DNA of 35,617 nucleotides. Source: a virus. Taxonomy: Duplodnaviria > Caudoviricetes. Position numbers and translations under genes: made by a program. Positions 2 to 35,555 of this stretch are shown here, piece after piece. The notes beneath the pieces were generated by a model. It saw nothing but the letters and a program-made list of their open reading frames with translations, had not been told where the DNA came from and ran no database searches. The stretch covers positions 1-35,617 of the IMG/VR virus record IMGVR_UViG_3300025390_000021; one strand, written 5' to 3'. How positions within the stretch are numbered: position 1 is the first letter of the stretch; the number at the start of each line of letters is the position of its first letter.

Positions 2-3000
2 CGCCATTCTGAGGTAATCAAGCGGGCTTTTCGCCTTGGGTGGAATCTTGTTGACAGGCGCAGACCGCTTGTGCTCTCGCAACTCTTCACGCATTTTATC
101 CAGCAACTTCGATCCTGTCTTGTTATCTCCACCGCCTAAAGCGGTAACAAATGCAGCCGGTAACACATATTCACCGTCAGCGATCTTGGCGGGAACTGGA
201 CTGGCAGAACCGCCGTGAGCGTGATGGGGGATCTGGTTGCGGAAATGCTCTAACGCCTGAGCGCCTGCTTTGCTGGAACCGTCACCCAACTGGGCCACGG
301 AATCAGCGTCAATCACATAGTCACCGTCATGAAGCATGGCAGGGATGTCGTCTGACTGGCCAGTGCCACGTCCAGCCGCGTAATAGCCCGTTTGGCCGGT
401 GATAAATTCTGGGTGATGTCCTTCAGGCGCCTCGGGGTGATAACGCGCTGGAAGGCCTCCTTCAGCCATACCGCCCACACCAACAACTGGGCCGCCACCC
501 ATCAAATGGCTGCGCAACTCAGGATTGATTGAGTTGTACAACTGTTGAAGCGCCCTCGGTTTAACCGAGTTTATGTATTTTGTGCTTGACTCCAAGCCGG
601 TTGGTGCGGTGTTTTTCATAGGTGTTGGCTGGAAATCTCTACTAGCGTCAGACAAAACTTTTTGTAGGCTTGAAGAATTATCGTTATCAATTGAGTTCAA
701 TTGGTCAAGCAAAGTGCCGCCGTCACTCTTGTGGATAAGACCGCCATGAGCCGCTTGTTCTTCTGGCGCACTTTCTTCGGCGGGGGCTTTGATGTTTTGA
801 GCAGCCAACGCTTCTTTCAAGTCGGGGTCAAGCGAAGAATACAACTGATTCAAGGCAGCCATCTTGGCCATCTTTGTATGCGGATCAGTTGATTGCAACT
901 CAGACGTATCGTTGTTGAACTTGGGCATCATGGCCTGTGCTTTTGCTTGCTGTTGCGCTTGTTGCAACCCGGTTAAGCCAGAACTCAATCCTCCCAATGC
1001 AGCAATTGTTGATGCCTGATTTGAAGCAATTGTGGAGTTTGTCGCAGCATTTGCGGCCGCCGAAGCTTCAGCAGATTTTGCAATCTCGTCTTGAGTTTGC
1101 TTAGACAAGTCGTCGATATTTTGGTTGGTCGTATCCAAACCGGCTTGGGTTTGTTTCTGATAAGCATCTAACTGTCCTTGCACAGTTGCAATGCCTTGCT
1201 CATCCAAATTCTTGACCTGATCAATAGCGTCACCAAAACTGGTGCCCATGTTAGTCAAAGATTTTGCAAGATCAGCCTGAGCAGAACTTAGATTCTGAAA
1301 ATCAGATTGTTGTTGGCCAGACAACTGACCAAAATCAGTTTTTTCTTGCTCAGACAAATTGGCTACATTCTGATTGGTGGCCGCTATGTTTTGATTTGTG
1401 GTTTCTTGATTGGAAGCAACTGTGTTCCCCAAGGCAGAGAGTCCGGCTTGAGTTTGTTCTTGATAACCTTGCAGTTGGCCATTCAATGTCGCCAGACCCT
1501 GCTCATCAAGATTTTTCACTTGATTGATTGCATCACTTAAAGACGTGCCGGTTTCAGTCAACGCTTTTGCGGTTTCTTGTTGAGCCGTGCTCAAGGTGTT
1601 GAAATCTGTTTTCTCTTGATCGGATAAATTATTAACAGCCGCATTTTCAGATGCCGCATTTGCGTTGACAGTATTAGTTAAATTTGATAGGGCGCCTGTT
1701 GTTTGAGTTTGATTTGTATCAACCGTGCTCTTCAAAGCATCAATTGCCGAAGTGTTTTCCGCTGTGCCCGCCGCAACATTAGAAATTGCTGACGACAAAT
1801 TGCCAGTATCTTGCGCTTCTTTCAACGCTTGCGCTTGTTGATCAGTCGTCAACTGTGAAAATGCGGCTTTATCACTCGCAGACAAATTAGCCACAGCTTC
1901 ATTGGTAGAGGCTAAAGCAGAATTTGTGGTGGCCTGATTTGTGTTGACAGTATTGTTCAACGCATCCAAGGCCGACTTGTTTTCAGATAGACCAGTTTGT
2001 AGACCAGATACTTGGTTATTAACCCCAGCCAAGTTGCTGCTGACGATCTGGTTGACTTGATCGGCAGTCATGCCGGGATTGGCGGTCATCGCAGACTGAA
2101 TGTCAGCCTTAACTTGAGCCTCGGTTAAACCGGGGTTTGCTGCCATTTGTTGGGCAACAATCGTTTGAACGTCAGAAGCCGATAAACCGGGTGAGCCTGA
2201 CGATGCAGGAAGAGAAACTGACAGACCGCCTGAGTCACCGCCAGAAATATCGGTGTTATCGTTTGTTGTAGCAGGGGTTTCTTGGGATGTTACGTCCACG
2301 TTGGTCACCGTGCTCTCAGGATTGTTGGCTGGAGTCTCGCTCACGCCATTACTGTCTGATTGGTTGTTTGTCCCAGTAATCGCAATCACCGGTGTACCAT
2401 TTCGAGTTGGCAAAGAATCAATGCTGCCTGCGCTTGGAGGCGCACTACCGGGGACATTGGTCAACCCAGCGGTCATCGGGCCAGCAGGGCCAGCCGCAGT
2501 TAAACTGGGGTTTGAGAACACCAGATTGCCATTGGCATCAGTGGTTAGACCAGTTCCAGCCAGTGGATCATTAGAGGCTACTGTGGTTGATGGAAGTCCG
2601 CCACTTGGAATTGTGGTGTCAGCGCTTCCATTGTCTGGATTCAAGCTGGAACTGTTCATAGTTCCAATACCGCCAGTTTGACCGGCGGTAGGATTGCCAG
2701 CTAAATCTTTTAATGCGCCGCTGATCTGGCTGCCAACGTAGTTGCTACCAGCGCCGATTGCAGCATTGGTCAAAATTTGTGTTGGGTCTGCACCCTTCAA
2801 AGCAGCAGAAGTGGCGGCACCAGCAGCACCCGCCAAAGGTGCTGACAATAAGTTTGCCCCATTCTGGCCAAGCCCAGAAGAAACACCGCTACCAATACCG
2901 CTGATCAACGCATTGGTTGGGCTGGCACCAGTCACCATATTACCGACTGTTGAGCCAATGGTATTTGAAATTCCAGTTGTTAGGCCTTTATTTTGGCAAA

Positions 3001-7492: not shown

Positions 7493-7500
7493 GGTTTGCC

Positions 7501-8142: not shown

Positions 8143-8147
8143 ACCTT

Positions 8148-8176
8148 ATTTTCCCATTAGGAGGTGAGAACAGCAA
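8148..8176 (-). promoter_or_regulatory. Possible sigma70-like promoter for the adaptor/tail genes
   Basis: TTGCTG-17 nt-GAAAAT with TGn before the -10. The ATG at 8142 lies only 5 nt downstream, so the mRNA would be nearly leaderless. Imperfect -10. Confidence 0.3.
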
Positions 8177-10486: not shown

Positions 10487-10487
10487 T

Positions 10488-13364: not shown

Positions 13365-13952
13365 TTAAACCTCAACTTTCATTTTTTGCCGTCTTGCTAT
13401 CCAAGACAATTTTACAGAGTCAGACAGTTTTTGCTTTGTTTCTTGGGACAACACTTTGCCTTTTTGAACCAAAGACATCTTTTGACGCAATTCTTTCGAG
13501 TATTTCATGCCTTTGTTTCCGGGCGTATTGCCCTTCAAAGACTCAGAAATTTTCTTTTTGGTTTCTTCACTTCTAGCTTTTCCAAGCCAAAATTTTGAAG
13601 GGTTGTTTTTTTTTGTTTCAGAAATGCGTTTTTTAGTTTCATCATCATGCTTTTTGCCAAAAAACGGATTCTTTTCACCAACCAGACCAGTTGCACCCTT
13701 GCCTCCATCAGCCACATTTGACAGATCAAATCCAAGGTCACGAAAGCATTTGATCAGAAACGCTTCGTGCTCATACGCCTCATCATGTGTTGGCCATGCT
13801 GCCAACAACTCAACTTTGAAATCGCCATGTTTGTCAACAATGAAATTCCAGTGCCGATTGCGACCACGACGACTGTGCGCTCGATGACGAGTACCTTTGC
13901 CGATGTAGAACATCGTGCCGTCTGGTTTGTAATGAGCGTATGTGTAGTACAT
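13365..13952 (-). CDS. Free-standing GIY-YIG homing endonuclease with NUMOD3 repeats
   Basis: YYTYAH...FYIGKG...R, E...E..LI, N..DGG, then NPFFGKKH.DETK.RIS and SEETKKKIS repeats. AT-rich; TAATG coupling to the upstream fibre gene. Confidence 0.85.
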   Translation of the reverse strand: MYYTYAHYKPDGTMFYIGKGTRHRAHSRRGRNRHWNFIVDKHGDFKVELLAAWPTHDEAYEHEAFLIKCFRDLGFDLSNVADGGKGATGLVGEKNPFFGKKHDDETKKRISETKKNNPSKFWLGKARSEETKKKISESLKGNTPGNKGMKYSKELRQKMSLVQKGKVLSQETKQKLSDSVKLSWIARRQKMKVEV

Positions 13953-18100: not shown

Positions 18101-18144
18101 GTCTTGTACACAGTAATGATTGGAGTTCATAGTATATCCAATTA

Positions 18145-19223: not shown

Positions 19224-19658
19224 TCACCAGTCTTTGTGCTTGTGGCTCTTCTCAACGGTGCTGATCTTGCAGTGCTTCAAGTCAATCTTGCCGCCTTGCT
19301 TGTATCCACCAGCCTTGGCTGCGCTGATACGAGCGCCCAGCTTGTTCATTTCTGGTTCAATGTCACGAGCCTTGCGCTCATAGTCAGACAAATTTTGCTC
19401 ACGGTCAGCATAACGATAGTTTTTGCCACCCTCGTAAGTTTTAGTCATCTCTGCATGACGCTTTTCAAGGTTGGGCAGGTCAGCCGCATCTTTCTTGGCG
19501 CGTTCTTTGGCCTCAACAGCCTCTTGTTGACGGCGCTTTTCCTGACGCTCCTCTGACTGTTCACGAGTCATGGGGTCGGTAATTGAAATGCGGCGGCCGG
19601 GATTCTTGGCGTTATGCGCCTCAGCCACGGCCCTAATCATTGACTTCAGATCGGACAT
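19224..19658 (-). CDS. Basic hypothetical protein (putative internal head protein)
   Basis: Start MSDLKS (ATG 19658, AAGGAA RBS); ends AGGYKQGGKI...KISTVEKSHKHKDW. Confidence 0.7.
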   Translation of the reverse strand: MSDLKSMIRAVAEAHNAKNPGRRISITDPMTREQSEERQEKRRQQEAVEAKERAKKDAADLPNLEKRHAEMTKTYEGGKNYRYADREQNLSDYERKARDIEPEMNKLGARISAAKAGGYKQGGKIDLKHCKISTVEKSHKHKDW

Positions 19659-19668
19659 GTTTGTTCCT

Positions 19669-20064
19669 TTACCAGCCGGGGCATTTCCAGCGTTTAAGCG
19701 ATGCTTTTGCACGTTCAGCATCGCCCTTTGAGTGTTCTACAACACCGCTCATTCTGGCACAAAACGAGTCTTTTCGGGAGCCGCCTTGGGGCTGTGGAGC
19801 CTTTAAATGCGACCCAGTTTCACGGTTGTACTTGGCACGACCTTTTTCGGTCAGGCCAGCACCCTTGGAAACAGGCAACTTCTCACCGCGGCCAACAGCT
19901 AGCGACACACCGCCTTCTTTCTTTTTGACGGTCTTCGCTGACTCTTTGAACGCAGCAGCCGTGGGCGCACCCTTAGAGCCGGGTTTACGCATCTTCTCAC
20001 CAGAACCGTGAGCGATGCGCTCCTGCTTTGCGTGGATGTTGGCGTAAAGCCCCGGCTTGGCCAT
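19669..20064 (-). CDS. Basic protein, DUF6321-like
   Basis: Start MAKPGLYANIHAK (TAATG overlap); GAGLTEKGRAKYN..GSHLKAP...RKDSFCARM...RWKC. Confidence 0.7.
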   Translation of the reverse strand: MAKPGLYANIHAKQERIAHGSGEKMRKPGSKGAPTAAAFKESAKTVKKKEGGVSLAVGRGEKLPVSKGAGLTEKGRAKYNRETGSHLKAPQPQGGSRKDSFCARMSGVVEHSKGDAERAKASLKRWKCPGW

Positions 20065-20252
20065 TACCAGCCACCTTTGCACATGGGATTTTCGTGGCAG
20101 GTCGAAACCTTGCCGCCATGCGCTTTGTGAGCGTGACGCTTTTCGTTGTAGGCGATGGCCACGGCCTGCTTAACAGGTTTTTTTCCTTGTACAATCTCTG
20201 TGCGTATGTTTTTCTCAAACGCTTTTTTGGAAGGACTATTTATGAGTGGCAT
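20064..20252 (-). CDS. Small basic protein (62 aa)
   Basis: MPLINSPSKKAFEKNIRTE...KQAVAIAY...KAHGGKVST; GGAG RBS 6 nt upstream. Confidence 0.75.
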   Translation of the reverse strand: MPLINSPSKKAFEKNIRTEIVQGKKPVKQAVAIAYNEKRHAHKAHGGKVSTCHENPMCKGGW

Positions 20253-21709: not shown

Positions 21710-23185
21710 TTACTTAGCGCGTCCGCCGCGTTTACGTTGTGGGACTGATTTCGCAATCTCAGCAACGGTTCTGGGGTTTACAAAACCACGACCGGCTCCG
21801 GCATCTTTGCCGTAACCCATCAATGATCTTGCACCTTCATACAAGCGACTAGGAATGCTACGGATGGCTTGTGCCGTGTCCATATCGTCCTGATCGGGGC
21901 GCATAGCGGCGTCATAGGCGCCCTTAGAGGCGTCTACGAGGTCACCATCGGCAAAGTGATGCACCTTGCCACCCTTTTTGAAAGTACCAGATTGCAGGCT
22001 GTTGGCTACGGGGCGGCTAACGAAGTGACGAGGCATTTTTTCTGCCTTGCCTTGATCGTTAACATTCCCCCCCGTAGCGTAGGCTTTTTTTGTGGCATGC
22101 CCTCCACGCTTAAAACCACCAGCATTGGCTTCTTTGACTTCACCAGTTTTGGTGTTGGTCTTGCCCTTGGGAGTGCCGTCCACGTTGTTGATGGCGAACT
22201 TCATTTCGTTGCCTTCAATAGCGCCACCAGTTGCCTTGTGGTGCATCTTTTGGTGAGCCTTGCCGCCGTGACGGAAGCCGCCAGCGTTGTTCATGCGAAC
22301 GCCGCCAGTGCCATGAGCGCGGTCGCGTTCAGCTTCGTGCATCTCGGTGTTTTCAAAGTCGTGCTCATTGCCTTCAATAGTGCCACCCATGACCGTGCGG
22401 CCGGGGTTCTTTTTCTTGTCGGTATCAGCAGGAATATCGCCGCCAGTTGCTTTGTGATGGACTTTGCCGCCACGTTTGTAACCGCCAGCATTCTTCTCTT
22501 TGATTTCACCAGTGCCGTGGTGCTTATCAGCATGGTCGCCGTCAACCACTTTGGTCTTAACGAAAGGTTTTTCGTCGTGCTCAATGGTGGTCTTGGTTTC
22601 GAACTTGTCGAGAGCCTTGCCAGAAGCTTTACCGCCTTCGGCTTTGTGATGAATCTTGCCACCATGTTTGTGATGTGCTTCTTTCATACCCAAAGACTCG
22701 TGGTGGTGCAGTTCTTTTTCCAACTTCTCGATATGTTTTTCCATACCAGCGTGGCCACCCTTTTTCATACCGGTCAAGGCCTTGCGGACTTGCATAGCAC
22801 GAGCGGCGCGAATGGCAGGAGCCATTTGAGCCAGTTTGGCTTGGCCCATAGGAGCCATAGGAGCGGCCATAGGAGCAGCACCCATAGGCATCATGCCACC
22901 ATCAGCCTTGTGATGAACCTTACCGCCGTGAGCGTATTGGTTGGGGTTCATTGCCTTGCGGCGTTCGGCCATGGAAGGCTTCTTGGGGGCGTGACCATGT
23001 TCAGCGTGGCCGTGCATACCTTCATGGTGCTTTGCAGCAGCATGGTGCATGCTGTGATGGCCGTGCTCTTCGTGGTGTTCCTTCTTATGGACTTTGCCAC
23101 CCTTTTTCAGCTTCAAGATAACTGACGGCTCGTCAGTCATCATTTTTGGCATTTGGCTAAAGCCGCCAGCGTGTTTTGTAGCCAT
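21710..23185 (-). CDS. His/Lys-rich repetitive protein (putative internal capsid protein)
   Basis: 491 aa with 14 x-[AKR]-x-GG motifs and His tracts; AGGAGG RBS. Confidence 0.8.
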   Translation of the reverse strand: MATKHAGGFSQMPKMMTDEPSVILKLKKGGKVHKKEHHEEHGHHSMHHAAAKHHEGMHGHAEHGHAPKKPSMAERRKAMNPNQYAHGGKVHHKADGGMMPMGAAPMAAPMAPMGQAKLAQMAPAIRAARAMQVRKALTGMKKGGHAGMEKHIEKLEKELHHHESLGMKEAHHKHGGKIHHKAEGGKASGKALDKFETKTTIEHDEKPFVKTKVVDGDHADKHHGTGEIKEKNAGGYKRGGKVHHKATGGDIPADTDKKKNPGRTVMGGTIEGNEHDFENTEMHEAERDRAHGTGGVRMNNAGGFRHGGKAHQKMHHKATGGAIEGNEMKFAINNVDGTPKGKTNTKTGEVKEANAGGFKRGGHATKKAYATGGNVNDQGKAEKMPRHFVSRPVANSLQSGTFKKGGKVHHFADGDLVDASKGAYDAAMRPDQDDMDTAQAIRSIPSRLYEGARSLMGYGKDAGAGRGFVNPRTVAEIAKSVPQRKRGGRAK

Positions 23186-23197: not shown

Positions 23198-24199
23198 TTA
23201 AGCTTGGGTCACACCCAAAGCGCCAGTGCGGGTTGCATTGGGGCCAGCAGCGATGCCGGGCAGTGCAATCACGACAACCAAACGCTTCACGCCGTTAGTG
23301 GCGCTAGAGGGGTAGTAAGTTCCACGCACATCGCCAGTTGACGAAGTTGCGGGGGTCGTCATGTCAGCAGCAGTAAATGCGCTGGTGCCGCCAGTGTCGT
23401 TGGCCAAGGTGTTGTTCCAGCCCACGCGGACAACATAACCAGCGTCAAACACGCGCAAAGGCAAACCGAGGGTATCGGTAGTACCAAATTGGATTGTCAC
23501 TGGCAAAGAACCGTTAATGGCGATGCTGGAGATCTGGTAGAAAGCTTTCTTACCAGACACGTTGGCAACAGCAGACGATGTCGTGCCGGTGGCGATCACT
23601 TCGGTCATTGCTTGGCCGTAGTAGTCGTAACCAGAAACGGTCAGGTTGCGGCTGGTGCTGATAGTGCCAGAAGCGGTGGTCAACTGAACAGCACGGGGAG
23701 TGTCCAACTGGATCACAGTCGTGCCATCGTTGCGGACATAAGTCTTGGTGTTAGTACCAGCAGCCAATGTCAAGTTACCAGCAGCGGCAGGCGTTTGAGC
23801 GGCTGCGATGTTGGCGTTGTTCAGAGTCTGAGGAACCACATCCCACACATATTCACGACCCAATGGGCCAACACCAACTTCCATTGGTGAAGGATCGCCC
23901 AGACCGGAGTTACCGGAAGCGTAAATTGTGATCGAGCCAGTAGCCGATGAGGAAGCGCTCAGGGTGTAAGTACCCGTGCCACCTGCACCAGACACAAAGG
24001 CCGTGATGTAAGAGTTAGCGGTGATACCGGTGCCGTTGACGTATTGTCCCAGAACCAAAGAATCACCAGAATTCATCGCAGTAACGGTCATGGTGGTGCC
24101 GGTGACGGAACCAGTAATGACGGCTTCAGCAGACGTGTTGGTTGTACCAATATAGCCTTGGGCAGTACCCAAGAACAGATCATCACTAAATTGAGGCAT
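23198..24199 (-). CDS. Capsid-associated structural protein (decoration-like)
   Basis: 333 aa directly after the MCP; LDTPRAV, VSGYDYYGQAMTE, GKKAFYQISSI, TGDVRGTY. Confidence 0.65.
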   Translation of the reverse strand: MPQFSDDLFLGTAQGYIGTTNTSAEAVITGSVTGTTMTVTAMNSGDSLVLGQYVNGTGITANSYITAFVSGAGGTGTYTLSASSSATGSITIYASGNSGLGDPSPMEVGVGPLGREYVWDVVPQTLNNANIAAAQTPAAAGNLTLAAGTNTKTYVRNDGTTVIQLDTPRAVQLTTASGTISTSRNLTVSGYDYYGQAMTEVIATGTTSSAVANVSGKKAFYQISSIAINGSLPVTIQFGTTDTLGLPLRVFDAGYVVRVGWNNTLANDTGGTSAFTAADMTTPATSSTGDVRGTYYPSSATNGVKRLVVVIALPGIAAGPNATRTGALGVTQA

Positions 24200-25804: not shown

Positions 25805-26356
25805 TTAGCCGGAAAATACCGGCATTTTGCTTGGCTGTTGATCAAAACCACCAAAACCCTCACCCTCGACTGACACCAAAGAACGACCTCGGCTGTCTCG
25901 TGCCGCACCTTGCAGTTGCTCCTGTTGGACTCGGATTTTCTCCTCCTCCTCGCGGGGCTTCTCATGATGTTGATACAACATGATGTCCTGATAGATGTCC
26001 ATCGGCAGTTTGAACAGCAACATTTCGTTGCATGAGATGTAGCCAACATGCTCACCTGACTTCACTCGATAATTTTCAAAGCCGGGGAACTCTTCAGACT
26101 TAACTGGAACGTACCCTTGGCGAATCCGCTTATCAATGGAGTCGTAGCTGTTGGTTGTCGAAAGCCAGCACAAGTGCCAGCCATCTAGGTTAGGTAATTT
26201 CGGAAGCGCTGATTGCGTCCACTCCTCACTCCACATCTTGCGACGTTCCTGTGTTGAAGCGAACTTATTCTCGGGTGCTTCGCGGCTTGCGTCCTCGCTT
26301 GCGCGATCATTGCGGCCACCAGCACTGAGGGATTTCTTTAGGCGTGATTCTGTCAT
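25805..26356 (-). CDS. Conserved head-module hypothetical protein
   Basis: GWHLCWLS...R.RQGYVPV...LLFKLP pattern, between scaffold and capsid genes. Confidence 0.7.
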   Translation of the reverse strand: MTESRLKKSLSAGGRNDRASEDASREAPENKFASTQERRKMWSEEWTQSALPKLPNLDGWHLCWLSTTNSYDSIDKRIRQGYVPVKSEEFPGFENYRVKSGEHVGYISCNEMLLFKLPMDIYQDIMLYQHHEKPREEEEKIRVQQEQLQGAARDSRGRSLVSVEGEGFGGFDQQPSKMPVFSG

Positions 26357-26373: not shown

Positions 26374-27369
26374 TTAGCGGTTACCGCCTTGGCGGTCATA
26401 TCGAATGAATTCTGCGATCATCTTCTTTTTGCGCTCAGGGTTGTCCCAAGCCCCAATCTCTTTCATCGCCTTCACCCGTTCAGGTGACAGCGTGAATTGA
26501 TTGCGGTTAGTACCACCATACGCAGCAGAAGCTTCACGTCCAGAACTGCCCACTACATTCCTCGGTTTACGAACAGCAGAATTGCCGTCAGATGCCCCAT
26601 TGTAACGATGGGGTAAATACTTTTGCAAGCGGTTATCGAGTTCATCCCAATAATCTGGGTCAGTTGGTGTCCAACCTTCTTTAGAAAGTTCAACATCGAC
26701 CTCTTTTGCGATTCGACTATCGGTGTCTGAACCGTCAACCTTGTACCAATTGTTTCGTTTCAACCAGTCCGCAGCGTTGCGTTGCACTCGTGGATCGGGT
26801 GCGGCCGGTGCAACCGGTTGTTGGCGTGGTTGTTGGTCAATTTGGCGGCGTTGGTTCTCCAATGCGTCCAAGTCCTTACGGGCTTGATACATCATTTCTT
26901 GCGCCTCAACCATGGCTTGGCCGTCACCGCTGTTTGCGGCCTCTGCCAGCTTCATTTTGGCGTATTCAACACGCACTTGCTGGTCTTGGACGGCTTTTTC
27001 CACTCGAGAAACGAAGCCTTGGTGGCTTTCTTGTTCTACTCGTTGCAAACGCTGGTCGGCTTGAGCCAGTTTGCGTTGCATTTCTTCATTTTGGCGACGC
27101 AGAGCCTGAATTTGGGCGTCTTTTTCTTCACGGCCACGCTTGGCAAGGTCACGTTTTGCCTTGCGACGTGCTCGTTTGGCCGCCAAAACAGCTTCTGAGT
27201 CATCAGGATGGTCGGGTTCTTCGTCTTGGACGTTCCCGCCTTCGTTTTTCTCGACAGGCTCGTTTGAATTGTCATCATCGGTGACAAAATCATCCGGCAA
27301 GTCGACCACCGCGGAGCCGTCAACGCCCTCTTCGATGTCTAAATCTTGATCTTTTGGTTCGTTACTCAT
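26374..27369 (-). CDS. Capsid scaffolding protein
   Basis: Acidic N-terminus, long coiled coil, W..RN.W and DPDYWDELD.RL motifs, C-terminal LS......K..G; typical position. Confidence 0.7.
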   Translation of the reverse strand: MSNEPKDQDLDIEEGVDGSAVVDLPDDFVTDDDNSNEPVEKNEGGNVQDEEPDHPDDSEAVLAAKRARRKAKRDLAKRGREEKDAQIQALRRQNEEMQRKLAQADQRLQRVEQESHQGFVSRVEKAVQDQQVRVEYAKMKLAEAANSGDGQAMVEAQEMMYQARKDLDALENQRRQIDQQPRQQPVAPAAPDPRVQRNAADWLKRNNWYKVDGSDTDSRIAKEVDVELSKEGWTPTDPDYWDELDNRLQKYLPHRYNGASDGNSAVRKPRNVVGSSGREASAAYGGTNRNQFTLSPERVKAMKEIGAWDNPERKKKMIAEFIRYDRQGGNR

Positions 27370-27378: not shown

Positions 27379-27834
27379 TTAAACGTAAGCTTTGAACGAC
27401 AGCGGGTCGTCCGTAACTTTGGCGATTAGTTCGTGATCGTTAATCGTCATGAACAAAACTGGGTCTTCGCCGTCCTCATTAGGAACTGGACGCTCCCAAC
27501 GGTCGCCACCCCAGCGGGGAACGCGCACAAAGTCACCAACATTTGCCCAAGAACCCTCTGGCCATGACGCCATCGTGTCTCGGTTTTTGAACGCCAATGG
27601 GCCAATAGACACGACCTTACCGATCATGTTGTTCCATTTTTCGTTCTCTTTGGTTTCATCAACGATGATGATGCGTCCAGCCTTCTTTTTGATCCGGCGT
27701 AGTTGAACGATCACGCGGCCACCATAAGGCTGCTGCCCCGGCGCCACATCTGGGAATGCCCATGCCAGTTCAACTGGATCAGACACGCCCGCTTGCCCCT
27801 CAATCGTGGGGATTGGGTCTTTTGTATCACTCAT
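27379..27834 (-). CDS. groES: GroES-like co-chaperonin
   Basis: Start MSDTK (ATG 27834, AGGAG RBS); P.GGRVIV, GRIII.DE, GKVVSIGPLAF, VGDFV...WGG, INDHELIA.V. Confidence 0.8.
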   Translation of the reverse strand: MSDTKDPIPTIEGQAGVSDPVELAWAFPDVAPGQQPYGGRVIVQLRRIKKKAGRIIIVDETKENEKWNNMIGKVVSIGPLAFKNRDTMASWPEGSWANVGDFVRVPRWGGDRWERPVPNEDGEDPVLFMTINDHELIAKVTDDPLSFKAYV

Positions 27835-27849
27835 ACTAACTCCTAAAAT

Positions 27850-27935
27850 CACCTTTGCAGGTGCGTCTTCTAAGCGCTTTATCAGCGCGGCCTCCGTCCT
27901 TTAGGGGGACGTTTCATGCCCCAGTTAAACTGGGG
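27850..27935 (-). promoter_or_regulatory. Structured intergenic leader with four hairpins
   Basis: Stems at 27919-27935, 27895-27911, 27874-27888 and 27850-27863 (GCAA tetraloop), just before the groES RBS. Confidence 0.5.
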
Positions 27936-27936
27936 T

Positions 27937-28116
27937 CTATTCTTTGCCCTTATCCTCGTCCAGCAGGTTGTCGATCTCGTCCAACACTTGTTGGAAGCCC
28001 TCGTACCTGCCCACCAGACGCTGATAAGTTTCCCAAGATTGAGCATGCCCCGAGGCTAGGGACGCGCTCAACTCGGCTTGTTGAAGCTTGATCACATGGA
28101 TCAGGCGGTCAATCAT
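27937..28116 (-). CDS. Small hypothetical protein (59 aa)
   Basis: MIDRLIHVIK...LASG...WETYQRLVGRYEGF...; below the ORF-track cutoff; ATGA coupling. Confidence 0.7.
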   Translation of the reverse strand: MIDRLIHVIKLQQAELSASLASGHAQSWETYQRLVGRYEGFQQVLDEIDNLLDEDKGKE

Positions 28117-28271
28117 TTTTGTTTCTTCAATGCGCTCAGACCGCCAGATGACTTGCCTTGAGATTGGCTGCCGCCTTTGGGTTGCAGGCTAGTGCCGTCC
28201 AGCTTTTCGCCTTGGGCCAAGCGTTTGTGCTGGGGCACGTTGATGCCCTTTTGTTCTGCTTCAGATGCCAT
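28113..28271 (-). CDS. Small basic hypothetical protein (52 aa)
   Basis: MASEAEQKGINVPQHKRLAQGEKL...; AGGAG RBS; overlaps the portal stop. Confidence 0.65.
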   Translation of the reverse strand: MASEAEQKGINVPQHKRLAQGEKLDGTSLQPKGGSQSQGKSSGGLSALKKQK

Positions 28272-30735
28272 TTGGAACTCCTTGTTGTGGCATTGCTGCC
28301 GGTTGTGGCTGTTGGGCCGATTGTAGATTCTGTTGCTGCATATCGGCAGCGTGATTGATCGTTTCGTGCGTCAATTTTGCATTTTCGATCTGGATGCGTG
28401 TCTGGTTGTCCAGTTGGTTGCGCTGTGCTTCCACTTGCAACCGTGCCTGAGCAATCTGTTGATCCGCCTTGTCCTTGGCAGCCTTGCGTTGTGTCTCTGC
28501 CATGCTGGTGTCTTTGACGACTTGAGCATCTGGAGGCAAGTTGCCTTGAGCAGATTGTTGGCGCTGTTGGGCTTGCTGGATGAGGCTTTGGAAGGCTGGC
28601 ACAAAGGCTTGGAACACCTCTTGAGTGTCCTTCTCCACATGTGCGCCCACCACTGCGTACAGTTGGTCAATGCTTGATGTCAACTTTGGATCATCGTAGT
28701 TGTTTACAGGCTTGCCACCGCGGGACTCGGCCACATAGGCGTTGCTGCGGTTCAAGTACCAGAGCGTCATGTGTTGCTTCAAGTGCTCGATCACATTGTT
28801 CAGATAGCCCGGATCAGCAAACGGCGACTGGCCCAAGAATGGGTTGAGCGCAAACTGCAAGTGATCTTGGATGTGAGCGATGTGGTCTTGCTGCATATAA
28901 GCGTATGCAGGCTGGCCAATGAGCATGGCGGCGTTTTCGTCCGCGGATGTACGTTGCTCCGGTGCAGGCACGTCCTTCATGATCTCGTTGATGTCCGGCA
29001 CTTTCAATTGTTTCAAGAAGCGAGACAACACTTTGGAGACATTGAACTGGTCGGGATACTTGTCCACCAACGCCAGCACAGCTTGGTTCTGAGCCATGCG
29101 CTGAGTCTCAGAGAAGATGTGCGGGTCAGACACCGGAACGATGTCGGTGTTCTTGGCGAAGTCGTCACGCTCAATATCCAAGTCGGTGACAACGTCAGCC
29201 TTGCGCATTTCGTCAAAGTGCCAACGGTTCAAGCGGCACAAAATCTTCAGCACACGGGCTTGTGACTCGTGCAGTCGAGCGTGAATGGCGGAAAACACCG
29301 CGGCGCCCTGTTCAATCAGCGCCTGAGTTGTGCCCACAGGAGCCTGAGAATTGACGTCAGCGACCTTTTCTTCGCTGGTGGTCACTACCCCCTTGGCGGC
29401 CGTGTCAAGCCAGCCTAGAAGCTGGAATAGCACGTCCGAAGGCGGATTAAACGGCATGGGCATCGCCACTTGACGAATGTCATTAACACCGGGTGCGCCC
29501 TCAATCTCAATCACTTGAGTTACGTCAGGTTGTGCAGATTGACCACTGATCTTTGCGCCCTTCATCTTCAGCATGGTGGCGCTGTTGTTGATGTGGGCTG
29601 TATCCAGCAAAGCGCGTAAGGCGCCAGTCAGGGCAGCGCTCAAGCCACCGATCAACTGAGGTAGGCCGATAGCATAAGCACCTCGCCACGGGATGAACTT
29701 AAACTCAACGATCCAATCTAGCTTGGTCATTGTGTCGTCAGTCTCTTCCCAGTTGCGGTACAGACCCACGACCTGATTGCTCAATTCGTCAATCATCAAA
29801 ATGTACGGAGCCATCTCACCCTTGGAATACTTGTCGTCTTCAAGTTCCATGTAGGTGTAGATGTGGTAGACCTTGCGCAGACCGTCATCATTGTCCTCAT
29901 ACTTCTTGCCTTCAATCTTGTCGTTGGCTTTCTGAGGCTTGGTGGGGTCAAGTTCCATCGTGGCGCGAGTGATGTTCACGTCACGGTACATACCCGATGC
30001 AATGCGTCGGTTGAACTCCCAATGGGTGATCTCGTGCATCTCAGCCGCACGTTCTGCCGTGTAGAAGTTAGTCGCCGCAAACGGCAAGATCACCCGGTCA
30101 ATCGGCAAGAACTCAACGCATGGGCGTTTCTTCTTTTCGTCATACCAGAGTTTGAAGTACTGTGAGCCGCCCAAAGGCAGTTGGGTTAGCAGTTGTTCTT
30201 GCTCGTCACGGAACTCTTCAATCTGTTCGGTGATCTGCCAGTTCAGGAAGTCACGCTTACGCTCTGCGACCTCCAGTTTCTGGTCATCAACCGTGCCAAT
30301 GATCTTCGTGCGTACAGGGCCGTCCGGCGGGAACATCTCTTTGATCGCCCGTGCAGCGAAGTCAACGCAACCCTCAGCCATGGCAGGATGGACGACCTTA
30401 GAGGCTCCCATAAAGGTTGCACCTCCGGGGGCATCATTGCCCATACCAGTCCGACGAATACCCTCTTCATACTGCTTATCTCTTAATTCTCGTGCGTTCT
30501 TATCGTTCTCAAGCAGGTCAATGTACCGAGCAGACAGCGGCTGCAAGTCCCAGTCGCTCATGCTCTCTGCCATGTTGGAGTAGAAGTCAGGGTTAACCTC
30601 TGGGCCGTCCTCCGGCAGCGTCACTATCGCAGAGCCATCAGGCAGTTCTTCGGTGTCAATGTCCTCTTCAGGAATGTCTACTTCAGCACTGCCGTCTTCG
30701 TTCAGTTCTGGGTCGATGTTGTCTTGCTCTTCCAT
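28261..30735 (-). CDS. Portal protein (P22-like, long C-terminal barrel)
   Basis: 824 aa from ATG 30735 (TGATG overlap). F.GAS.VVHP.MAE..V.F.ARA..E.FP..GPV, LP..GS...K...D, APVGTT.ALIEQG, DI.PVSDP; Gln-rich C-terminus. Confidence 0.9.
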   Translation of the reverse strand: MEEQDNIDPELNEDGSAEVDIPEEDIDTEELPDGSAIVTLPEDGPEVNPDFYSNMAESMSDWDLQPLSARYIDLLENDKNARELRDKQYEEGIRRTGMGNDAPGGATFMGASKVVHPAMAEGCVDFAARAIKEMFPPDGPVRTKIIGTVDDQKLEVAERKRDFLNWQITEQIEEFRDEQEQLLTQLPLGGSQYFKLWYDEKKKRPCVEFLPIDRVILPFAATNFYTAERAAEMHEITHWEFNRRIASGMYRDVNITRATMELDPTKPQKANDKIEGKKYEDNDDGLRKVYHIYTYMELEDDKYSKGEMAPYILMIDELSNQVVGLYRNWEETDDTMTKLDWIVEFKFIPWRGAYAIGLPQLIGGLSAALTGALRALLDTAHINNSATMLKMKGAKISGQSAQPDVTQVIEIEGAPGVNDIRQVAMPMPFNPPSDVLFQLLGWLDTAAKGVVTTSEEKVADVNSQAPVGTTQALIEQGAAVFSAIHARLHESQARVLKILCRLNRWHFDEMRKADVVTDLDIERDDFAKNTDIVPVSDPHIFSETQRMAQNQAVLALVDKYPDQFNVSKVLSRFLKQLKVPDINEIMKDVPAPEQRTSADENAAMLIGQPAYAYMQQDHIAHIQDHLQFALNPFLGQSPFADPGYLNNVIEHLKQHMTLWYLNRSNAYVAESRGGKPVNNYDDPKLTSSIDQLYAVVGAHVEKDTQEVFQAFVPAFQSLIQQAQQRQQSAQGNLPPDAQVVKDTSMAETQRKAAKDKADQQIAQARLQVEAQRNQLDNQTRIQIENAKLTHETINHAADMQQQNLQSAQQPQPAAMPQQGVPNGI

Positions 30736-33700
30736 CACTTGGCCTTCTTAAAGTGTTTAACGCTCATCAGTTCGTACTGCATGGCGTCAAGGTTGGGCGA
30801 AATTGTAACTTTTTCTTTGGTGATGCCGTGCCCAACAGGCTTAATTGTGCCACCCTTTTTCTTGCCCATGCGCTCTTTTCCGGTCAATACCAGATCACGA
30901 GCAGTCTCTGGGCTGACACCAAGGCGCTTTGCCGTAAATCCAATTTGTTTTGCAATCAACTCAAGCTTAGGGGCGCCAATGGGCGTTGTCACACCAGTCT
31001 GAGGAGAAAACGCACCCCATGCAAGCGCTTGCGCAGGCACAGACTCAAGCCCAACTTTGTTGGCAATTTTTTGTTGCCACCATGGGCCAAGCGACGACAT
31101 CTCAGGATTTGTCACGCTGGCGCCGGGAACAACCTCTTGGCCTTTCAAAATCTGCGGGTTACGCGTATCGGCCAAACCAACGGCACGGCTCCAGTGCGCA
31201 TCACCCACCGGTGTACGGGTCTGGAATCCAATCTCAGGCACACCAGATGCTTCAATGTACATCGGCACTTTGGGGCTGCTCATGCTTACTTCGCCATGCG
31301 TCAAAAAGTTCTTCATGGGTACAGCGTGAGTCGTCTTGTGCGCCAAGTGACCGGGTACTTCACCAAAATCAGCGGGACGATTGGGGTCACGCTTACCACC
31401 ATGCTGCACAAACTCGTTAAAGCGTCCTTGGTTTTGCAAATAGTAAGCCAATGATCCTCGAGGAATTTCTGTGTTCACCTCACTGGCAGACGATGCCATG
31501 CCCATTAAAGCATTCATCTTCTTGTACTCTTGCGCGGCTTTTTCGGGGCCAAGCAATTTGACCATGTGTTGAAACAATGGATCCATGTAATACCAAGGCT
31601 CCATCCCATGACGCAGGCCTTCGTGCTTCTGGGCCTCACCCAACACGTCCAACAGACGACGTTCATTGCGTGGGTTCATGACGTTTTCTGCGGCTTCAGC
31701 ACCACGCGGGTTGGCCGATGCACCGGGCAATACACCCAGATGCGGCATACCTTGACGGCCATGTGCCTGCTCAAACATTTCTGCACGGTTTACGCCAAAC
31801 AACTGCTTCAAGATTGGGTCTTCAGGCGCCACGCGTGATGCAGCCAATGCTGCGATCTCATCAGGTCTGCCATAGATGCCGGGATACGCCATGCGCTGGG
31901 CATTCTTAACTGTCTGTTGGCGCTTGGTCACGCTACCCTTTGATGCGTAGTGATCTACACCACCGCCATCAGCCATGGCTTGTGGGCCTTTGGGTGGAGT
32001 CATTGCATTCATTGCTTGACCTTGGGGCGTCATCTGTAGGATGTTGCTGGGCGGTTGACCCTGTGGGCCACCTTGTGGTGGTTGAGCGCCTTGTGGGGGC
32101 TGCTGTTGGCCTTGCTGGGGCTGTTGACCGGGTGCAGGAGGCTGTGTAGGCCACAGTTGTTGTCCGGGCACCGCGGGCTGCATGTCAATCCCACCAACGG
32201 GCAGTTGGCCGGGGTGTTGGCCATGAGGCAGGATGTATTCTTTGGTCGGCAGGTTGGGGGCTTCTTCAGCGCCAACATTGGTGATGTTTGAAAGGCTTGT
32301 CGGTTGCTTCATCATCAACTCTGCTTGCATTTGACTTAGTGATGGCATAGAGCCTCCTGTTGCTTTGTAAACGATGCCGCCGCGGGCTTTTTGTTGAACT
32401 GGCGGTTCATAACCGTGATGTGCCATCCCTCTTTCAGCTTCGTTGAGCCAATAATTAAGGCTTGGGTAGTAGTCATTCAAACTGCTGATATTATCTTCTG
32501 GTTTTTTAATAACATTCAGTAGTTCTGGAGCCGAGTAGGATGACTTTGGATATAGTGGTTGACCATAAATTTTTTCTAATTTGTGTTGATCCTCATAATC
32601 CAAATTAAGCAAATCTTTGTCTCTTTTTGCTTTGGCAGCATGCTGTTCTTTGAACGCTGGATGGTTCTGCAAAAATTCAATCGCCATTTTTATGCGTGGT
32701 TCGTAATGTTTTTTTGCTTCGCTTTGCTCCAAATACTTGTTATCGCCAATAGGAACCATGTCGACGTGATGCAAGTCTTCAACATTTGTCCAATTGCCCG
32801 ACTTCACAAAGTCTTGCGCGTAAGGAATGTATTTGGCTACTGGCTTAGCGTTTCCCTTGCCCTTAATTTGCTCAATGCGCTCGGGGGGATTCTTCATTAT
32901 TTTTACCGCCTCATCGTCAGGCAAATCAGCAGCTTGTCTGCCTAGTTCAGCGCCACGCACTTTGTTTACTTCAATAGTTACATGCGGCTCATTCTTTTTG
33001 TCACGCAGACTAAAAATACGAGTATTGCCACTTGCAACATCTGGGCAGTACCCACCAACGCAGTGGCCCATTGTGTCGCCTTCATACTTCAGCGCCTCTT
33101 CCAGCTTGCTGTAGTTGGGATGTTGGACGTGATTGACACCTTGCGGGTCAGTATATGTGCCGGACGAATGTTGGCTCCAGCCTTCGGGCAGGTTCTTGTC
33201 CAGAGCCAATTCCAGCCATCTAAAGCCGTTGCCGTAGTCCTTGTGGACTGGCATGCCCTCGGTTGCTTTGAGCGCAATTTCAGCCATTTTGCGTTTGCGC
33301 TCTTCGTTGTACTCATGCGCACGACGGACAGCCTGCTCCATGCTGACCTTGCTTAATTGTTCTGGACGAATACGACCCTCGGTCATGTCTTGCTTGAGAA
33401 TGTCAATTATGTGGTCAAAACCAAGAGCATTAGCATCCATGCTATTTGTTGGCGCAAACACTTTAGTTGACGGATCGACTTTGTCCATCCACGGCTCACG
33501 TCTTGAACCTTCAAGATGAGAAACATAGTTGGGTTTCATTGCAACATCAGTTGCGTCTTCCCATGCTTGTGCATGTTCAGACTTGCCAAGTTTAGGCTCA
33601 TCCCAATTGGCGCGATGATGTTCTGCTTTCCATCGATCTATTCCAACTTGATCTGGGGAAACATGCAAAATTCCCTGTTCTGCCAACGCACGAATTGGAT

Positions 33701-35555
33701 CGTTATGCGTTCCCATTTGTTTGCGTATGTAGTTGCCAAGGTTGCCTTGAATCCAGTTGTTCAAATGGGCTTTATGCTCCAATTCTTGCATTTGACGCGG
33801 AATTGTTTCACGAACTGTTGGAACTGTTTTGGCCGCTTTTTCAATGGCTTCAGGATGCCAAACCCTTTGCATCTCAGCCAATGTTTCTGCCGGATCATCT
33901 CCAACCGCTGTTCTTTGTTTCAGCGAGTTAAGTATTCGATCAACACCGCCCTTAATCCAGTTCTTTGGCCCTTGACCACCGATAGCCAAGTGTACGGGCT
34001 TGCGCAGTGCCAAAGCGGCTTGCATCTCGTCAATAGTTGGTTCCACGTTGCCTCCTTGGGCTTGTCTTTGCACGGGAACAGGATTGAACACCGCCGCAGT
34101 TGGCATGCTCAGATTCCGGTTAATCATGCCGTTGTATCCGTAGTCTTTGATGAGCCGTTCGTAATCATTGGCTGCCTGCACTTGATCCACCAAGCCGGGG
34201 TTGACCATGGACGTATGAGGCGTCCTGTTGGCCTCCACGGCAAGCTTGCGCAACATTAACGGGTCAGCGCCCATGTCATACAACTTGTCGACCATCGCTT
34301 TGTATTTATGTGTGCCCAAACCAACTTCACCACGTTCTGGGTTGCCAGCATAAAAATACGTCCGGTCACGCACGGCGCCGGGTTCTTGTAAGCGGCTTGC
34401 TTCTGCACCTTTGATGCCAGTGCCATATCTGGTTGGGTCAGTCATAGTCAGGTTTGGTTCGTGGCTAAAGTGGGTCAGTTGCGCAGTCTCGCCGCCTTCT
34501 GGTTGGATCAAGTGGCGGATGTATGCGGGAATGCCACCAGCATAACTGCCACTGTTCATCTCTGGAGGCAACAACACAGCCCTTTGAGGGGCAAACTGGA
34601 AATGGTTGTCCAGTAAGTTCTTCTTCTCGGCCTTGGCGGCTTCAAACAAGTCCATACGGCCCTTGCGCTTGGCGTCATAAGCAGTCTCATCCAACGCTGC
34701 CACTTCAGCTTTTATGCGGGCATTTAACGGCGTGTAATTAACTACACTGTTTTGGCCACGAGTCTCTGCCGTCATGGCTGCTTGAGCCAGCGGGCTGAAC
34801 ATACCAGAGTGAGCCGCCCAAGCCTTCTCTTCGCCTTGAGGGCCAAAGGTCGTGCCGTGCAAGGCATGGCCATAGACATCATGCACCGCCCGGAACATTT
34901 CATTGTCATTCAAGCCCGACTCGGGATGGACGTTGTGCAAAAAGTCATGGCGGTCGCCGCCTTGGAAAACATAGAGGTGTCGGTGGCCATGCACATCGCG
35001 TATCATCTCTTTGCTGTCTTGGTAGTTGCCTTCACCATTGCGGTGAAAACTCATGTTGATTGGTAAGCTCTCAAACTGGCGCTTAGTTTCATGGGCCAAG
35101 TGGCCATACGCTTTTTGCAGCAGTTGATCGTAGTCTTGAGCCTCACCGACGTGCTCAGGCATGTGGCGCTTGTAAGCCTCGTATACGGCTTTTTTGTACT
35201 CTGGGTGATCTGTGGCCGCCAGAAGGAATGTGCGTCCAATGGCGCCTTGCTTGGCCAGTGAACTGGATGAATTGTCAACAGGCTTGTACGGTTTGCCTAA
35301 ATGCTGTTTTGTATATGCCTCAGCCGCATGGCGAATGGCATTGTCTGGGCCTTTGATTATCCCTTTGACCGCTTCGTCCGTAAGTGGTTGCGGAATTGTG
35401 TTTCGTGATAGTCCTTGCTGGCCTTGACCGGTATCCCGATGGCTTTCGATATTGCCGCTCGTAGCTGCGAAGCCCGATGCAACGCCATGTGGGCGGACTC
35501 GGTAGAATGGGCCTTCTTGTGCTGTGTCATAGGTTATTCCTTGTTGTGTGGCCAT
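30735..35555 (-). CDS. Large polyvalent protein: HDxxGH domain + ART-like + PcfJ-like + HhH-glycosylase-like domain
   Basis: 1606 aa from ATG 35555 (GAGG RBS). Motifs: NEMFRAVHDVYGH; THFS..GTG...TYFY...GYNG; EGDTMGHCVGGY..SLRD..PHVTIE..IEQIKGKGN; WY...AS..KV...DAHWSR...QALAW. Confidence 0.8.
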   Translation of the reverse strand: MATQQGITYDTAQEGPFYRVRPHGVASGFAATSGNIESHRDTGQGQQGLSRNTIPQPLTDEAVKGIIKGPDNAIRHAAEAYTKQHLGKPYKPVDNSSSSLAKQGAIGRTFLLAATDHPEYKKAVYEAYKRHMPEHVGEAQDYDQLLQKAYGHLAHETKRQFESLPINMSFHRNGEGNYQDSKEMIRDVHGHRHLYVFQGGDRHDFLHNVHPESGLNDNEMFRAVHDVYGHALHGTTFGPQGEEKAWAAHSGMFSPLAQAAMTAETRGQNSVVNYTPLNARIKAEVAALDETAYDAKRKGRMDLFEAAKAEKKNLLDNHFQFAPQRAVLLPPEMNSGSYAGGIPAYIRHLIQPEGGETAQLTHFSHEPNLTMTDPTRYGTGIKGAEASRLQEPGAVRDRTYFYAGNPERGEVGLGTHKYKAMVDKLYDMGADPLMLRKLAVEANRTPHTSMVNPGLVDQVQAANDYERLIKDYGYNGMINRNLSMPTAAVFNPVPVQRQAQGGNVEPTIDEMQAALALRKPVHLAIGGQGPKNWIKGGVDRILNSLKQRTAVGDDPAETLAEMQRVWHPEAIEKAAKTVPTVRETIPRQMQELEHKAHLNNWIQGNLGNYIRKQMGTHNDPIRALAEQGILHVSPDQVGIDRWKAEHHRANWDEPKLGKSEHAQAWEDATDVAMKPNYVSHLEGSRREPWMDKVDPSTKVFAPTNSMDANALGFDHIIDILKQDMTEGRIRPEQLSKVSMEQAVRRAHEYNEERKRKMAEIALKATEGMPVHKDYGNGFRWLELALDKNLPEGWSQHSSGTYTDPQGVNHVQHPNYSKLEEALKYEGDTMGHCVGGYCPDVASGNTRIFSLRDKKNEPHVTIEVNKVRGAELGRQAADLPDDEAVKIMKNPPERIEQIKGKGNAKPVAKYIPYAQDFVKSGNWTNVEDLHHVDMVPIGDNKYLEQSEAKKHYEPRIKMAIEFLQNHPAFKEQHAAKAKRDKDLLNLDYEDQHKLEKIYGQPLYPKSSYSAPELLNVIKKPEDNISSLNDYYPSLNYWLNEAERGMAHHGYEPPVQQKARGGIVYKATGGSMPSLSQMQAELMMKQPTSLSNITNVGAEEAPNLPTKEYILPHGQHPGQLPVGGIDMQPAVPGQQLWPTQPPAPGQQPQQGQQQPPQGAQPPQGGPQGQPPSNILQMTPQGQAMNAMTPPKGPQAMADGGGVDHYASKGSVTKRQQTVKNAQRMAYPGIYGRPDEIAALAASRVAPEDPILKQLFGVNRAEMFEQAHGRQGMPHLGVLPGASANPRGAEAAENVMNPRNERRLLDVLGEAQKHEGLRHGMEPWYYMDPLFQHMVKLLGPEKAAQEYKKMNALMGMASSASEVNTEIPRGSLAYYLQNQGRFNEFVQHGGKRDPNRPADFGEVPGHLAHKTTHAVPMKNFLTHGEVSMSSPKVPMYIEASGVPEIGFQTRTPVGDAHWSRAVGLADTRNPQILKGQEVVPGASVTNPEMSSLGPWWQQKIANKVGLESVPAQALAWGAFSPQTGVTTPIGAPKLELIAKQIGFTAKRLGVSPETARDLVLTGKERMGKKKGGTIKPVGHGITKEKVTISPNLDAMQYELMSVKHFKKAK

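What the first reader, a model, noticed from the sequence alone, without database searches (positions are those of the whole stretch)
209..34064. Candidate new system: a shared x-[A/K/R]-x-G-G tag on capsid-internal cargo proteins and at polyprotein domain boundaries
Seen: 14 copies in the 491-aa protein, often paired (YAHGGKVHHKADGG, YKRGGKVHHKATGG). Ejection protein: AAHGGLIHKSDGG (716-754), MAEGG (455-469), HAHGG (209-223). Small basic proteins: YKQGGKI, KKEGGV, KAHGGKV. Scaffold: variant KNEGGNV (27235-27249). Polyvalent protein: QAQGG/LAIGG (33975-34064), KARGG/KATGG (32352-32390), MADGG (~31960-31976) and KKKGG (30849-30863), all between or after enzyme domains. I did not see the basic-context form in the MCP, adaptors, lysis proteins or endonucleases. 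Known: adenovirus and ASFV maturation proteases cut after Gly-Gly motifs, and T4 uses capsid-targeting sequences. Inference: the motif is either a procapsid-loading signal or a cleavage site that releases separate effectors injected with the DNA. No protease gene is evident in this window.
Basis: partly seen in the sequence, partly recalled or inferred. Interest (0 to 1): 0.82.

Follow-up and report, generated by a model that had tools for sequence, protein, structure and literature searches.

The report
AxGG seam code on phage cargo
A short peptide (Ala/Lys-x-Gly-Gly) marks the joints and tails of the proteins this freshwater phage likely packs inside its head, turns up only in relatives that also carry one small conserved domain, and is likely a cutting site just before the Ala/Lys, the position where phage T5's tail ruler protein is cut.

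Summary
The motif is real and at the stated coordinates. In the form [FYMRKLHAV][AK]xGGx[VILM] it occurs 16 times against 0.7 expected in six likely cargo proteins, and 0 times in shell, tail or lysis proteins. Relatives repeat this. Enzyme cassettes of the 1,608-aa polyvalent protein are swapped at the motifs.

The motif also heads a conserved 156-aa module ending the ejection protein. That module is homologous to units in siphophage tape measures (lambda gpH) and, more weakly, crAss001 cargo C1. Tags track the module across lineages: module in 12 of 26 genomes, absent from 14 tagless ones.

T5 pb2 is cut R|AEGG, and crAss001 C1 density starts at the same Ala. So a cut before Ala/Lys is likelier (0.5) than pure docking (0.33), and a cut after GG is unlikely. 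No protease was found and no cut is shown here. I found no paper describing it; the scan has noted the motif many times on other DNA.

The parts
2..3886 (-). Ejection/cargo protein (C1-like position, after the nozzle gene); variable N-terminal part, conserved C-terminal module; the frame runs off the window end
   Evidence: homologues 275-1,963 aa share only the last ~156 aa at ~75% identity
2..469 (-). Conserved two-unit module (unit 1 GDYV, unit 2 GEYV), headed by M-AEGG; candidate reader/anchor of the tag and possible protease
   Evidence: pTM 0.77; 9,884 representatives at E<=1e-3; tag 15-21 aa before the core in 222 of 231 homologues
455..469 (-). Tag MAEGG at the start of the module
209..223 (-). 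Tag HAHGG at the start of unit 2 (kept in only 19 of 53 aligned homologues)
716..754 (-). Paired upstream tags AAHGG/KSDGG
   Evidence: a second tag 50-110 aa upstream in about 200 of 222
19224..19721 (-). 165-aa basic protein with C-terminal tag YKQGGKI (19290-19304)
19669..20082 (-). DUF6321 basic protein with tag KKEGGV (19909-19923) before the domain
20064..20252 (-). Small basic protein (PHROG 2423; start at MPLINS inferred from 61-62-aa homologues) with tag KAHGGKV (20112-20126); fused to the DUF6321 protein through a tag in some relatives
21710..23185 (-). 491-aa Lys/His-rich low-complexity repeat protein with 14 tags, often paired 8-12 aa apart
   Evidence: (tag glycines more conserved than other glycines, 8.1 vs 6.1 on a 0-9 scale, 27 sequences)
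27235..27249 (-). Variant tag KNEGGNV in an acidic loop of the scaffold; a similar element in about 7 of 17 relatives, absent in the rest
   Evidence: read by eye
30735..35561 (-). 1,608-aa polyvalent protein: cassettes at about 1-499 (PHROG 3170), 530-1057 (PcfJ-like), 1067-1196 (Gln/Pro-rich), 1201-1567, plus a C-terminal tail
33975..34064 (-). Tags QAQGG and LAIGG flanking a helix signal (34005-34040)
32310..32390 (-). Paired tags KARGG/KATGG followed by a helix signal (32310-32345)
31962..31976 (-). Tag MADGG; left border of the cassette that L009 lacks and L063 carries elsewhere
30762..30863 (-). Tag KKKGG (30849-30863) and C-terminal helix signal D-x-M-Q-x-E-L (30762-30797)

Best explanation
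The motif [Y/F/M/K/L/H]-[A/K]-x-G-G-x-[V/I] sits at the cassette joints and tails of six proteins that are likely carried inside the head, and it is likely cut just before the Ala/Lys during virion assembly, which would release separate cassettes and short basic peptides. Shown: the motif, its restriction to these protein families, cassette exchange at it, its fixed position ahead of a small conserved module, and its co-occurrence with that module. Inferred: that the proteins are internal (gene position, basic low-complexity make-up, analogy with crAss001 gp45); that the module, as a dimer or tandem pseudo-dimer probably held at the portal as in crAss001, recognises the tag and so gathers the cargo; and that the bond before Ala/Lys is cut. 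The catalyst is unknown. I put about 0.3 on the module itself (its one acidic residue kept in all versions could be catalytic or bind the new N-terminus) and the rest on an unrecognised phage or host enzyme.
For: Enrichment: 16 vs 0.66 in the window; in relatives dereplicated at 90%, ejection protein 60 vs 10, 491-aa family 240 vs 5, polyvalent slot 34 vs 1.5, small basic proteins 18 vs 0.6. Portal, nozzle and tail families 0; non-virion families 2 vs 2.7; lysis 1 vs 1.4. In the complete relative MW202545, 14 of 15 strict hits lie in the four homologous slots, including an 890-aa polyvalent-slot protein with no BLAST hit to the window's at E<=1e-4.

Seams: L009 lacks 1203-1567, L063 carries 1201-1575 elsewhere between its own tags, and L001 replaces about 535-1075. 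Internal HSP ends fall within 15 aa of a tag in 38% of 493 cases vs 11% at random.

Register: T5 pb2 is cut after R1127 (PMC10038345), which reads R|AEGG; the computed fragment is 9,701.7 Da vs 9,702 measured. crAss001 gp45 has about eight motifs bounding its domains, and the portal-bound density starts at A425 of N-AFGG. Lambda gpH carries the homologous unit between FATGG (733) and YATGG (778); a cut there gives 79.8 + 12.5 kDa vs published estimates of ~78 + ~14 kDa.

Core-pattern scans that did not contain the motif find it at a fixed distance in 57 of 113, 100 of 120 and 18 of 83 units.

Co-occurrence: module in 6 of 6 and 5 of 5 contigs of two tagged lineages (tags 394 vs 15 and 69 vs 12) and in HTVC023P; absent from 12 of 12 CRP-901-lineage contigs, CRP-901 and QDWS535, where tags are 2 vs 10, 1 vs 1.7 and 1 vs 1.2. 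None of 140 tagged proteins starts with the tag, so upstream residues seem needed.
Against: No cut, and no virion location, is measured for this phage or any close relative. No prohead protease was recognised in the window or in the 81 ORFs of the complete relative (most ORFs have no Pfam hit). The module has no canonical catalytic motif, and its homologue in crAss001 has a structural role on the portal. The T5-type unit is not detectably homologous to the window's (hhalign 0.5-1%); it has Arg/Lys before the Ala, whereas here that residue is mostly hydrophobic and Lys replaces Ala in 57% of 455 cargo sites. The T5 site is disputed by an older V1148 assignment (PMC11937520). The lambda match is about 1.5 kDa off, and the paper's working range ends at 730. 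Density starting at A425 may only be where order begins, and the crAss001 authors model gp45 as continuous. Co-occurrence rests on about four lineages, and a diverged module could be missed. Caulobacter RW has the module with no other tagged protein. Two of the three downstream ejection-protein families carry no strict tag.
Confidence: 0.5

Rival explanations
1. Uncut address tag. G-G-x-V is a strand of the module's own fold, and free copies on other proteins dock into module dimers at the portal. The 491-aa protein then acts as a multivalent hub that condenses cargo inside the procapsid, and nothing is cut in this phage.
For: The motif is the first element of single-unit modules at a fixed 3-residue distance. 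A single unit does not fold alone in AF2 (pTM 0.37) while the tandem pair does (0.77), which suggests a two-site dimer. Tag pairs are spaced 8-12 aa. Tags track the module. The crAss001 homologue binds the portal wing. No protease was recognised.
Against: It does not explain the T5 cut at the exact Ala, lambda gpH processing near the unit, or why enzyme cassettes need a tag on both sides. In the window's family the strand position is taken by T-G-Y-Y while AxGG is kept separately upstream in 222 of 231 homologues.
Confidence: 0.33
2. Neutral flexible linker or DNA recombination seam: the motif spreads by duplication and merely marks where cassettes were shuffled.
For: The 491-aa protein shows internal DNA duplication. 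Tags lie in low-complexity regions.
Against: Glycine codons vary freely (GGT 0.44, GGC 0.42) with no GGAGG excess (8% vs 8% background) in 462 sites. The motif is shared by non-homologous proteins. Tag glycines are more conserved than other glycines. Tags are absent from the module-less lineage.
Confidence: 0.1
3. Cut after Gly-Gly by an adenain/SUMO-type cysteine protease, as in adenovirus and ASFV.
For: Invariant di-glycine with a preferred hydrophobic or basic residue four positions upstream.
Against: No such protease in the complete relative. The T5 cut is before the Ala. crAss001 density is reported from A425 through GG.
Confidence: 0.05

Closest known systems
Crassvirus cargo protein C1 (crAss001 gp45; PDB 7QOG chain M; Pfam PF25725; PMC10172136, passages read)
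   Same: First gene after the nozzle/muzzle; a string of small domains bounded by the same motif; its portal-bound domain is linked to the window's module by a profile chain (A1 to type A 98.5%, type A to type C 81.7%, type C to gp45 E 2e-4); nearest Pfam cluster in the ESM Atlas (0.84, a lead only).
   Different: No direct Pfam, HMM or fold match to C1. Here the module is duplicated and C-terminal, and the tags are spread over six genes. The passages read mention no motif or cleavage.
Tape-measure maturation: T5 pb2 to pb2* + pb2C (PMC10038345, PMC11937500, PMC11937520) and lambda gpH to gpH* + gpHC (PMC12617516); passages read
   Same: AxGG ahead of a small acidic-residue unit near the C-terminus; the T5 cut is exactly before the Ala; lambda, JBD30 and Douge tape measures are the top three PDB hits of the unit profile.
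   Different: Those are single cuts in tail proteins of siphophages; this is a short-tailed phage with many tags on head-operon proteins. The T5-type unit is not detectably homologous.
Polyvalent proteins of phages (Iyer et al. 2017, PMC5512222, passages read)
   Same: Shuffled effector domains in one chain; the same gene slot holds PcfJ, GNAT, ART-PolyVal, PBECR5 or GP88 hits in relatives.
   Different: The paper proposes processing by fused zincin MPTase or assemblin domains; none was hit here, and the passages read describe no linker motif.
Prohead-protease processing of head cargo (T4 gp21 and capsid-targeting sequence, recalled; SPN3US gp245, PMC10052503 and PMC5694885, search listing and abstract start only)
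   Same: A short motif repeated in internal, ejected proteins.
   Different: No prohead protease recognised, the capsid protein and portal carry no tag, and the specificity lies on the prime side of the predicted cut.

Membership tests
Prohead-protease cargo processing (T4/phiKZ/SPN3US type) | Short motif enriched in internal head proteins | tested here: met
   internal location itself is inferred
Prohead-protease cargo processing (T4/phiKZ/SPN3US type) | Phage-encoded prohead serine protease | tested here: not met
   none in 34 window ORFs or 81 ORFs of MW202545; only an S74 fibre chaperone and an M15 endolysin; an unrecognised enzyme is not excluded
Prohead-protease cargo processing (T4/phiKZ/SPN3US type) | Capsid protein or portal carry the same site | tested here: not met
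   0 strict hits in the window's MCP and portal and in 16 portal relatives
Prohead-protease cargo processing (T4/phiKZ/SPN3US type) | Cleavage shown in virions | not testable with these tools
   no virion proteome available
Adenovirus/ASFV Gly-Gly maturation | Cut after Gly-Gly by a viral cysteine protease | tested here: not met
   no such protease; the comparable measured cut is before Ala; crAss001 density runs through GG
Polyvalent proteins (Iyer 2017) | Several unrelated effector domains in one chain, shuffled among relatives | tested here: met
   only PcfJ and PHROG 3170 are named in the window's own copy
Polyvalent proteins (Iyer 2017) | Fused MPTase/assemblin processing domain (common, not obligatory) | tested here: inconclusive
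   no Pfam hit in 5 window segments and 17 relatives' proteins, most of them truncated at the locus edge
Crassvirus cargo C1 (PF25725) | Match to PF25725 or gp45 | tested here: not met
   no Pfam hit; A1 profile does not hit gp45
Crassvirus cargo C1 (PF25725) | Remote homology of the compact domain | tested here: inconclusive
   indirect profile chain only; fold searches gave no match
Crassvirus cargo C1 (PF25725) | Binds the portal wing | not tested
Tape-measure C-terminal unit (lambda gpH/JBD30/Douge type) | AxGG followed by the G-x-G-T-G-x-S-D ... G-E-[FY]-V unit | tested here: met
   hhalign 98.5%, E 4e-15
Tape-measure C-terminal unit (T5 pb2C type) | Homology beyond the motif | tested here: inconclusive
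   hhalign 0.5-1%, no better than reversed controls; the unit is very short

The most novel reading that the evidence does not exclude
The small module is an unrecognised dimeric self-processing protease and anchor shared by siphophage tape measures, crassvirus C1 and podophage ejection proteins. It cuts before AxGG in cis. In phages without a prohead protease it has been turned into a portal-bound loading-and-release station for any protein that acquires the tag. This would name the missing catalyst and site (F733|A734) of lambda gpH cleavage and give a portable code for packaging proteins into phage heads.
Probability: 0.2. Interest if true: 0.92.

Novelty: new variant of a known kind. Interest (0 to 1): 0.7.

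Why it matters
It gives a sequence rule for spotting injected cargo and for splitting phage polyproteins into their working units across very abundant freshwater, marine and gut phages. It also makes an old question directly testable: a 2025 paper still says it is unknown how lambda gpH cleavage is catalysed (PMC12617516), and the motif predicts both the site and a candidate catalyst in a laboratory phage. If the tag loads cargo, it is a short handle for putting proteins into phage heads.

Tried and rejected
Complex prediction of the module (residues 6-156) with a 35-aa tag peptide from the 491-aa protein: no verdict, score 0.01, which is not evidence either way.

Fold searches of the module model: no PDB match (Foldseek best E 0.87, VIA best Z 3.2) and only uncharacterised phage proteins in BFVD. 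This shows neither a new fold nor a different one.

Pfam on 81 single units and NCBIfam on 14 segments gave no family.

The 183-aa protein as a protease: no named look-alike. Tagless CRP-901 and QDWS535 have a gene of similar size in the same slot, though BLAST did not link them.

Shine-Dalgarno or DNA-repeat origin of GG: rejected on codon use. Free N-terminal AxGG as a natural start: 0 of 140. Nozzle RKIGG as a tag: rejected.

Invariance of columns 26-37 in alignment A2 is forced by my search pattern and was not counted; only S40 (80 of 81), G42 (77) and E43 (81) are unbiased.

Looking for more measured cuts: nothing in bioRxiv 2022.12.01.518664 or PMC2248197 (passages). The crAss001 peptide map (Extended Data Fig. 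3) is a figure I could not see, and supplement file 1 was unreadable; it bears on whether gp45 joints are intact.

Paper searches that found no description of the motif. The library lacks most subscription papers.

Full report
Setting. The window is the whole held record: the virion operon of a short-tailed phage, on the minus strand. It has a portal, GroES, scaffold, capsid protein, SU10-type adaptor, nozzle, fibres and lysis genes. The capsid protein is 93.8% identical to that of the complete freshwater genome MW202545 and 78.6% to Caulobacter phage RW.

Observation. All listed sites are present. The loose pattern is enriched in the six named proteins (29 vs 9.3) but occurs at chance level in shell and tail proteins (9 vs 8.6). 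Adding the hydrophobic residue two positions after GG gives 16 vs 0.66 in the six proteins, 7 vs 0.46 without the 491-aa protein, and 0 elsewhere. I chose that form after seeing the data, so the relatives are the real test.

Relatives. In 156 related loci dereplicated at 90%, the strict motif is enriched in the ejection protein (60 vs 10), the 491-aa family (240 vs 5), the polyvalent slot (34 vs 1.5), the small basic proteins (18 vs 0.6) and the next ejection protein downstream (25 vs 3.7, in 17 of 54). It is at or below chance in portal, nozzle, fibres, adaptors, two further ejection families, lysis and 174 non-virion proteins (50 shuffles each). In MW202545, 14 of 15 strict hits are in the four homologous slots. 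The copies in the 491-aa protein are partly duplications, but their glycines are more conserved than the protein's other glycines. Codon use shows an amino-acid signal, not a DNA one.

Seams. The gene between terminase and portal is a cassette array. Relatives delete, move or replace segments of the window's 1,608-aa protein at the tags, and internal alignment ends fall near tags 38% of the time against 11% at random (493 ends, not independent). The slot holds GNAT, ART-PolyVal, PBECR5, GP88 or PcfJ hits in different genomes. A second signal is confined to this slot: a helix pattern [DEQ]-x-M-x-x-[EAD]-[LVIM] follows 32 of 84 tags against 6 of 485 background windows, and tag plus helix ends 14 of 25 proteins. 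It follows no tag in the other families. It may be the slot's own loading signal; this is untested.

The module. The last 156 aa of the ejection protein begin with M-AEGG and are ~75% identical across proteins of 275-1,963 aa; 9,884 cluster representatives match. It is two copies of a unit found singly in RW gp66 and in tape measures of Douge, JBD30 and lambda. AF2 folds the tandem (pTM 0.77) but not a single unit (0.37), which suggests a dimer. Scans for the unit core alone put the motif at a fixed distance upstream in 57 of 113 type A, 100 of 120 type B and 18 of 83 type C units. Types A and C are homologous by profile comparison (81.7%); type B, which includes T5, is not detectably so. Type C includes the portal-bound domain of crAss001 gp45, a proven cargo protein whose domains are bounded by about eight such motifs.

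Co-occurrence. Among phages with this capsid family, the module was found in 12 of 26 records searched: all 6 of the window's lineage, all 5 of a second lineage and HTVC023P. It was absent from 12 CRP-901-lineage contigs, CRP-901 and QDWS535 (6 of the 12 contigs are at least 90% complete). Tags around the head genes follow the same split: 394 vs 15 (a set fetched with the tagged 491-aa protein, so enriched by design), 69 vs 12 (fetched with a capsid protein) and 2 vs 10. HTVC023P and Pag-Yong1 are enriched (8 vs 1.6, some of them fibre repeats; 6 vs 1.2), while RW has only the module's own tag. This is about four lineages, so it is suggestive only.

Cut or dock. T5 pb2 is cut after R1127 by intact mass (PMC10038345, PMC11937500; passages); the sequence there is R|AEGG and my computed fragment mass matches. 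An older V1148 assignment is cited against it (PMC11937520). crAss001 C1 density starts at A425, the same register, and runs through GG; the authors model the chain as continuous, and I did not see coordinates. Lambda gpH loses a ~14-kDa piece by an unknown catalyst (PMC12617516); the motif predicts 12.5 kDa. JBD30's authors guessed a cut at 1066 and called the unit a hook (PMC11445458). The DT57C passages also infer tape-measure cleavage but give no site (PMC10713586). Three loose-to-exact fits in one register, and tags on both sides of enzyme cassettes, favour a cut before Ala/Lys. The absence of a recognisable protease, the module's apparent two-site build, the 8-12-aa tag pairs and the portal-bound homologue keep pure docking alive. 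The two are compatible: recognition by the module could both gather and cut.

Novelty. Nine paper searches found no description of the motif. Earlier notes of this scan report the motif, the T5 match, the crAss link and the module on other genomes. In the few lines of those notes that I could see, I did not find the module-tag co-occurrence across lineages, the fixed-distance test or the helix signal in this slot. It works like motif-directed maturation of head cargo but fails the membership tests for the T4/phiKZ and adenovirus systems, so I file it as a new variant of a known kind, interest 0.7.

Noticed in passing
window 34005-34040, 32310-32345, 30762-30797 (-): Amphipathic-looking helix signal (P-[STN]-[IL]-x-x-M-Q-x-[EA]-L) three times in the polyvalent protein, usually 7-11 aa after a tag and at the C-terminus; 15 of 16 strict hits in relatives are in this gene slot (0.1 expected).
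   Followed up: partly
window 20155-20823 (+): An HNH endonuclease gene lies on the opposite strand inside the virion operon, head to head with the small basic gene; two more homing endonucleases at 13365-13952 and 17432-18130.
   Followed up: no
window 25805-26356 (-): Conserved 183-aa protein between scaffold and decoration genes, the usual slot of a prohead protease, with no known family; 82% identical in MW202545 and 42% in RW.
   Followed up: partly
window 27379-27852 (-): Phage-encoded GroES-like co-chaperonin in the head operon, kept in RW, MW202545, HTVC023P, CRP-901, QDWS535 and Pag-Yong1.
   Followed up: no
L521:22437-23381 and 23534-23815 (MW202545): A beta-ketoacyl synthase gene and a small neighbour that may be an acyl-carrier protein sit just upstream of the ejection genes; possible acylation of virion proteins. 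A similar pair is seen in L144.
   Followed up: no
L077:9883-11148, L083:8644-10500, L114:10477-11904: The ejection protein downstream of the module gene often ends in Cys-rich stretches followed by paired tags and a conserved I-G-C tail; other relatives lack this whole ending.
   Followed up: partly
window 17091-17432 (-): 113-aa protein with two CxxC-like pairs (possible zinc finger), conserved in RW; no family.
   Followed up: no
window 28113-28271 and 27937-28116 (-): Two small genes of 52 and 59 aa between portal and GroES, below the first ORF cut-off, conserved in relatives; the 52-aa family carries a loose GG motif in 4 of 12.
   Followed up: partly
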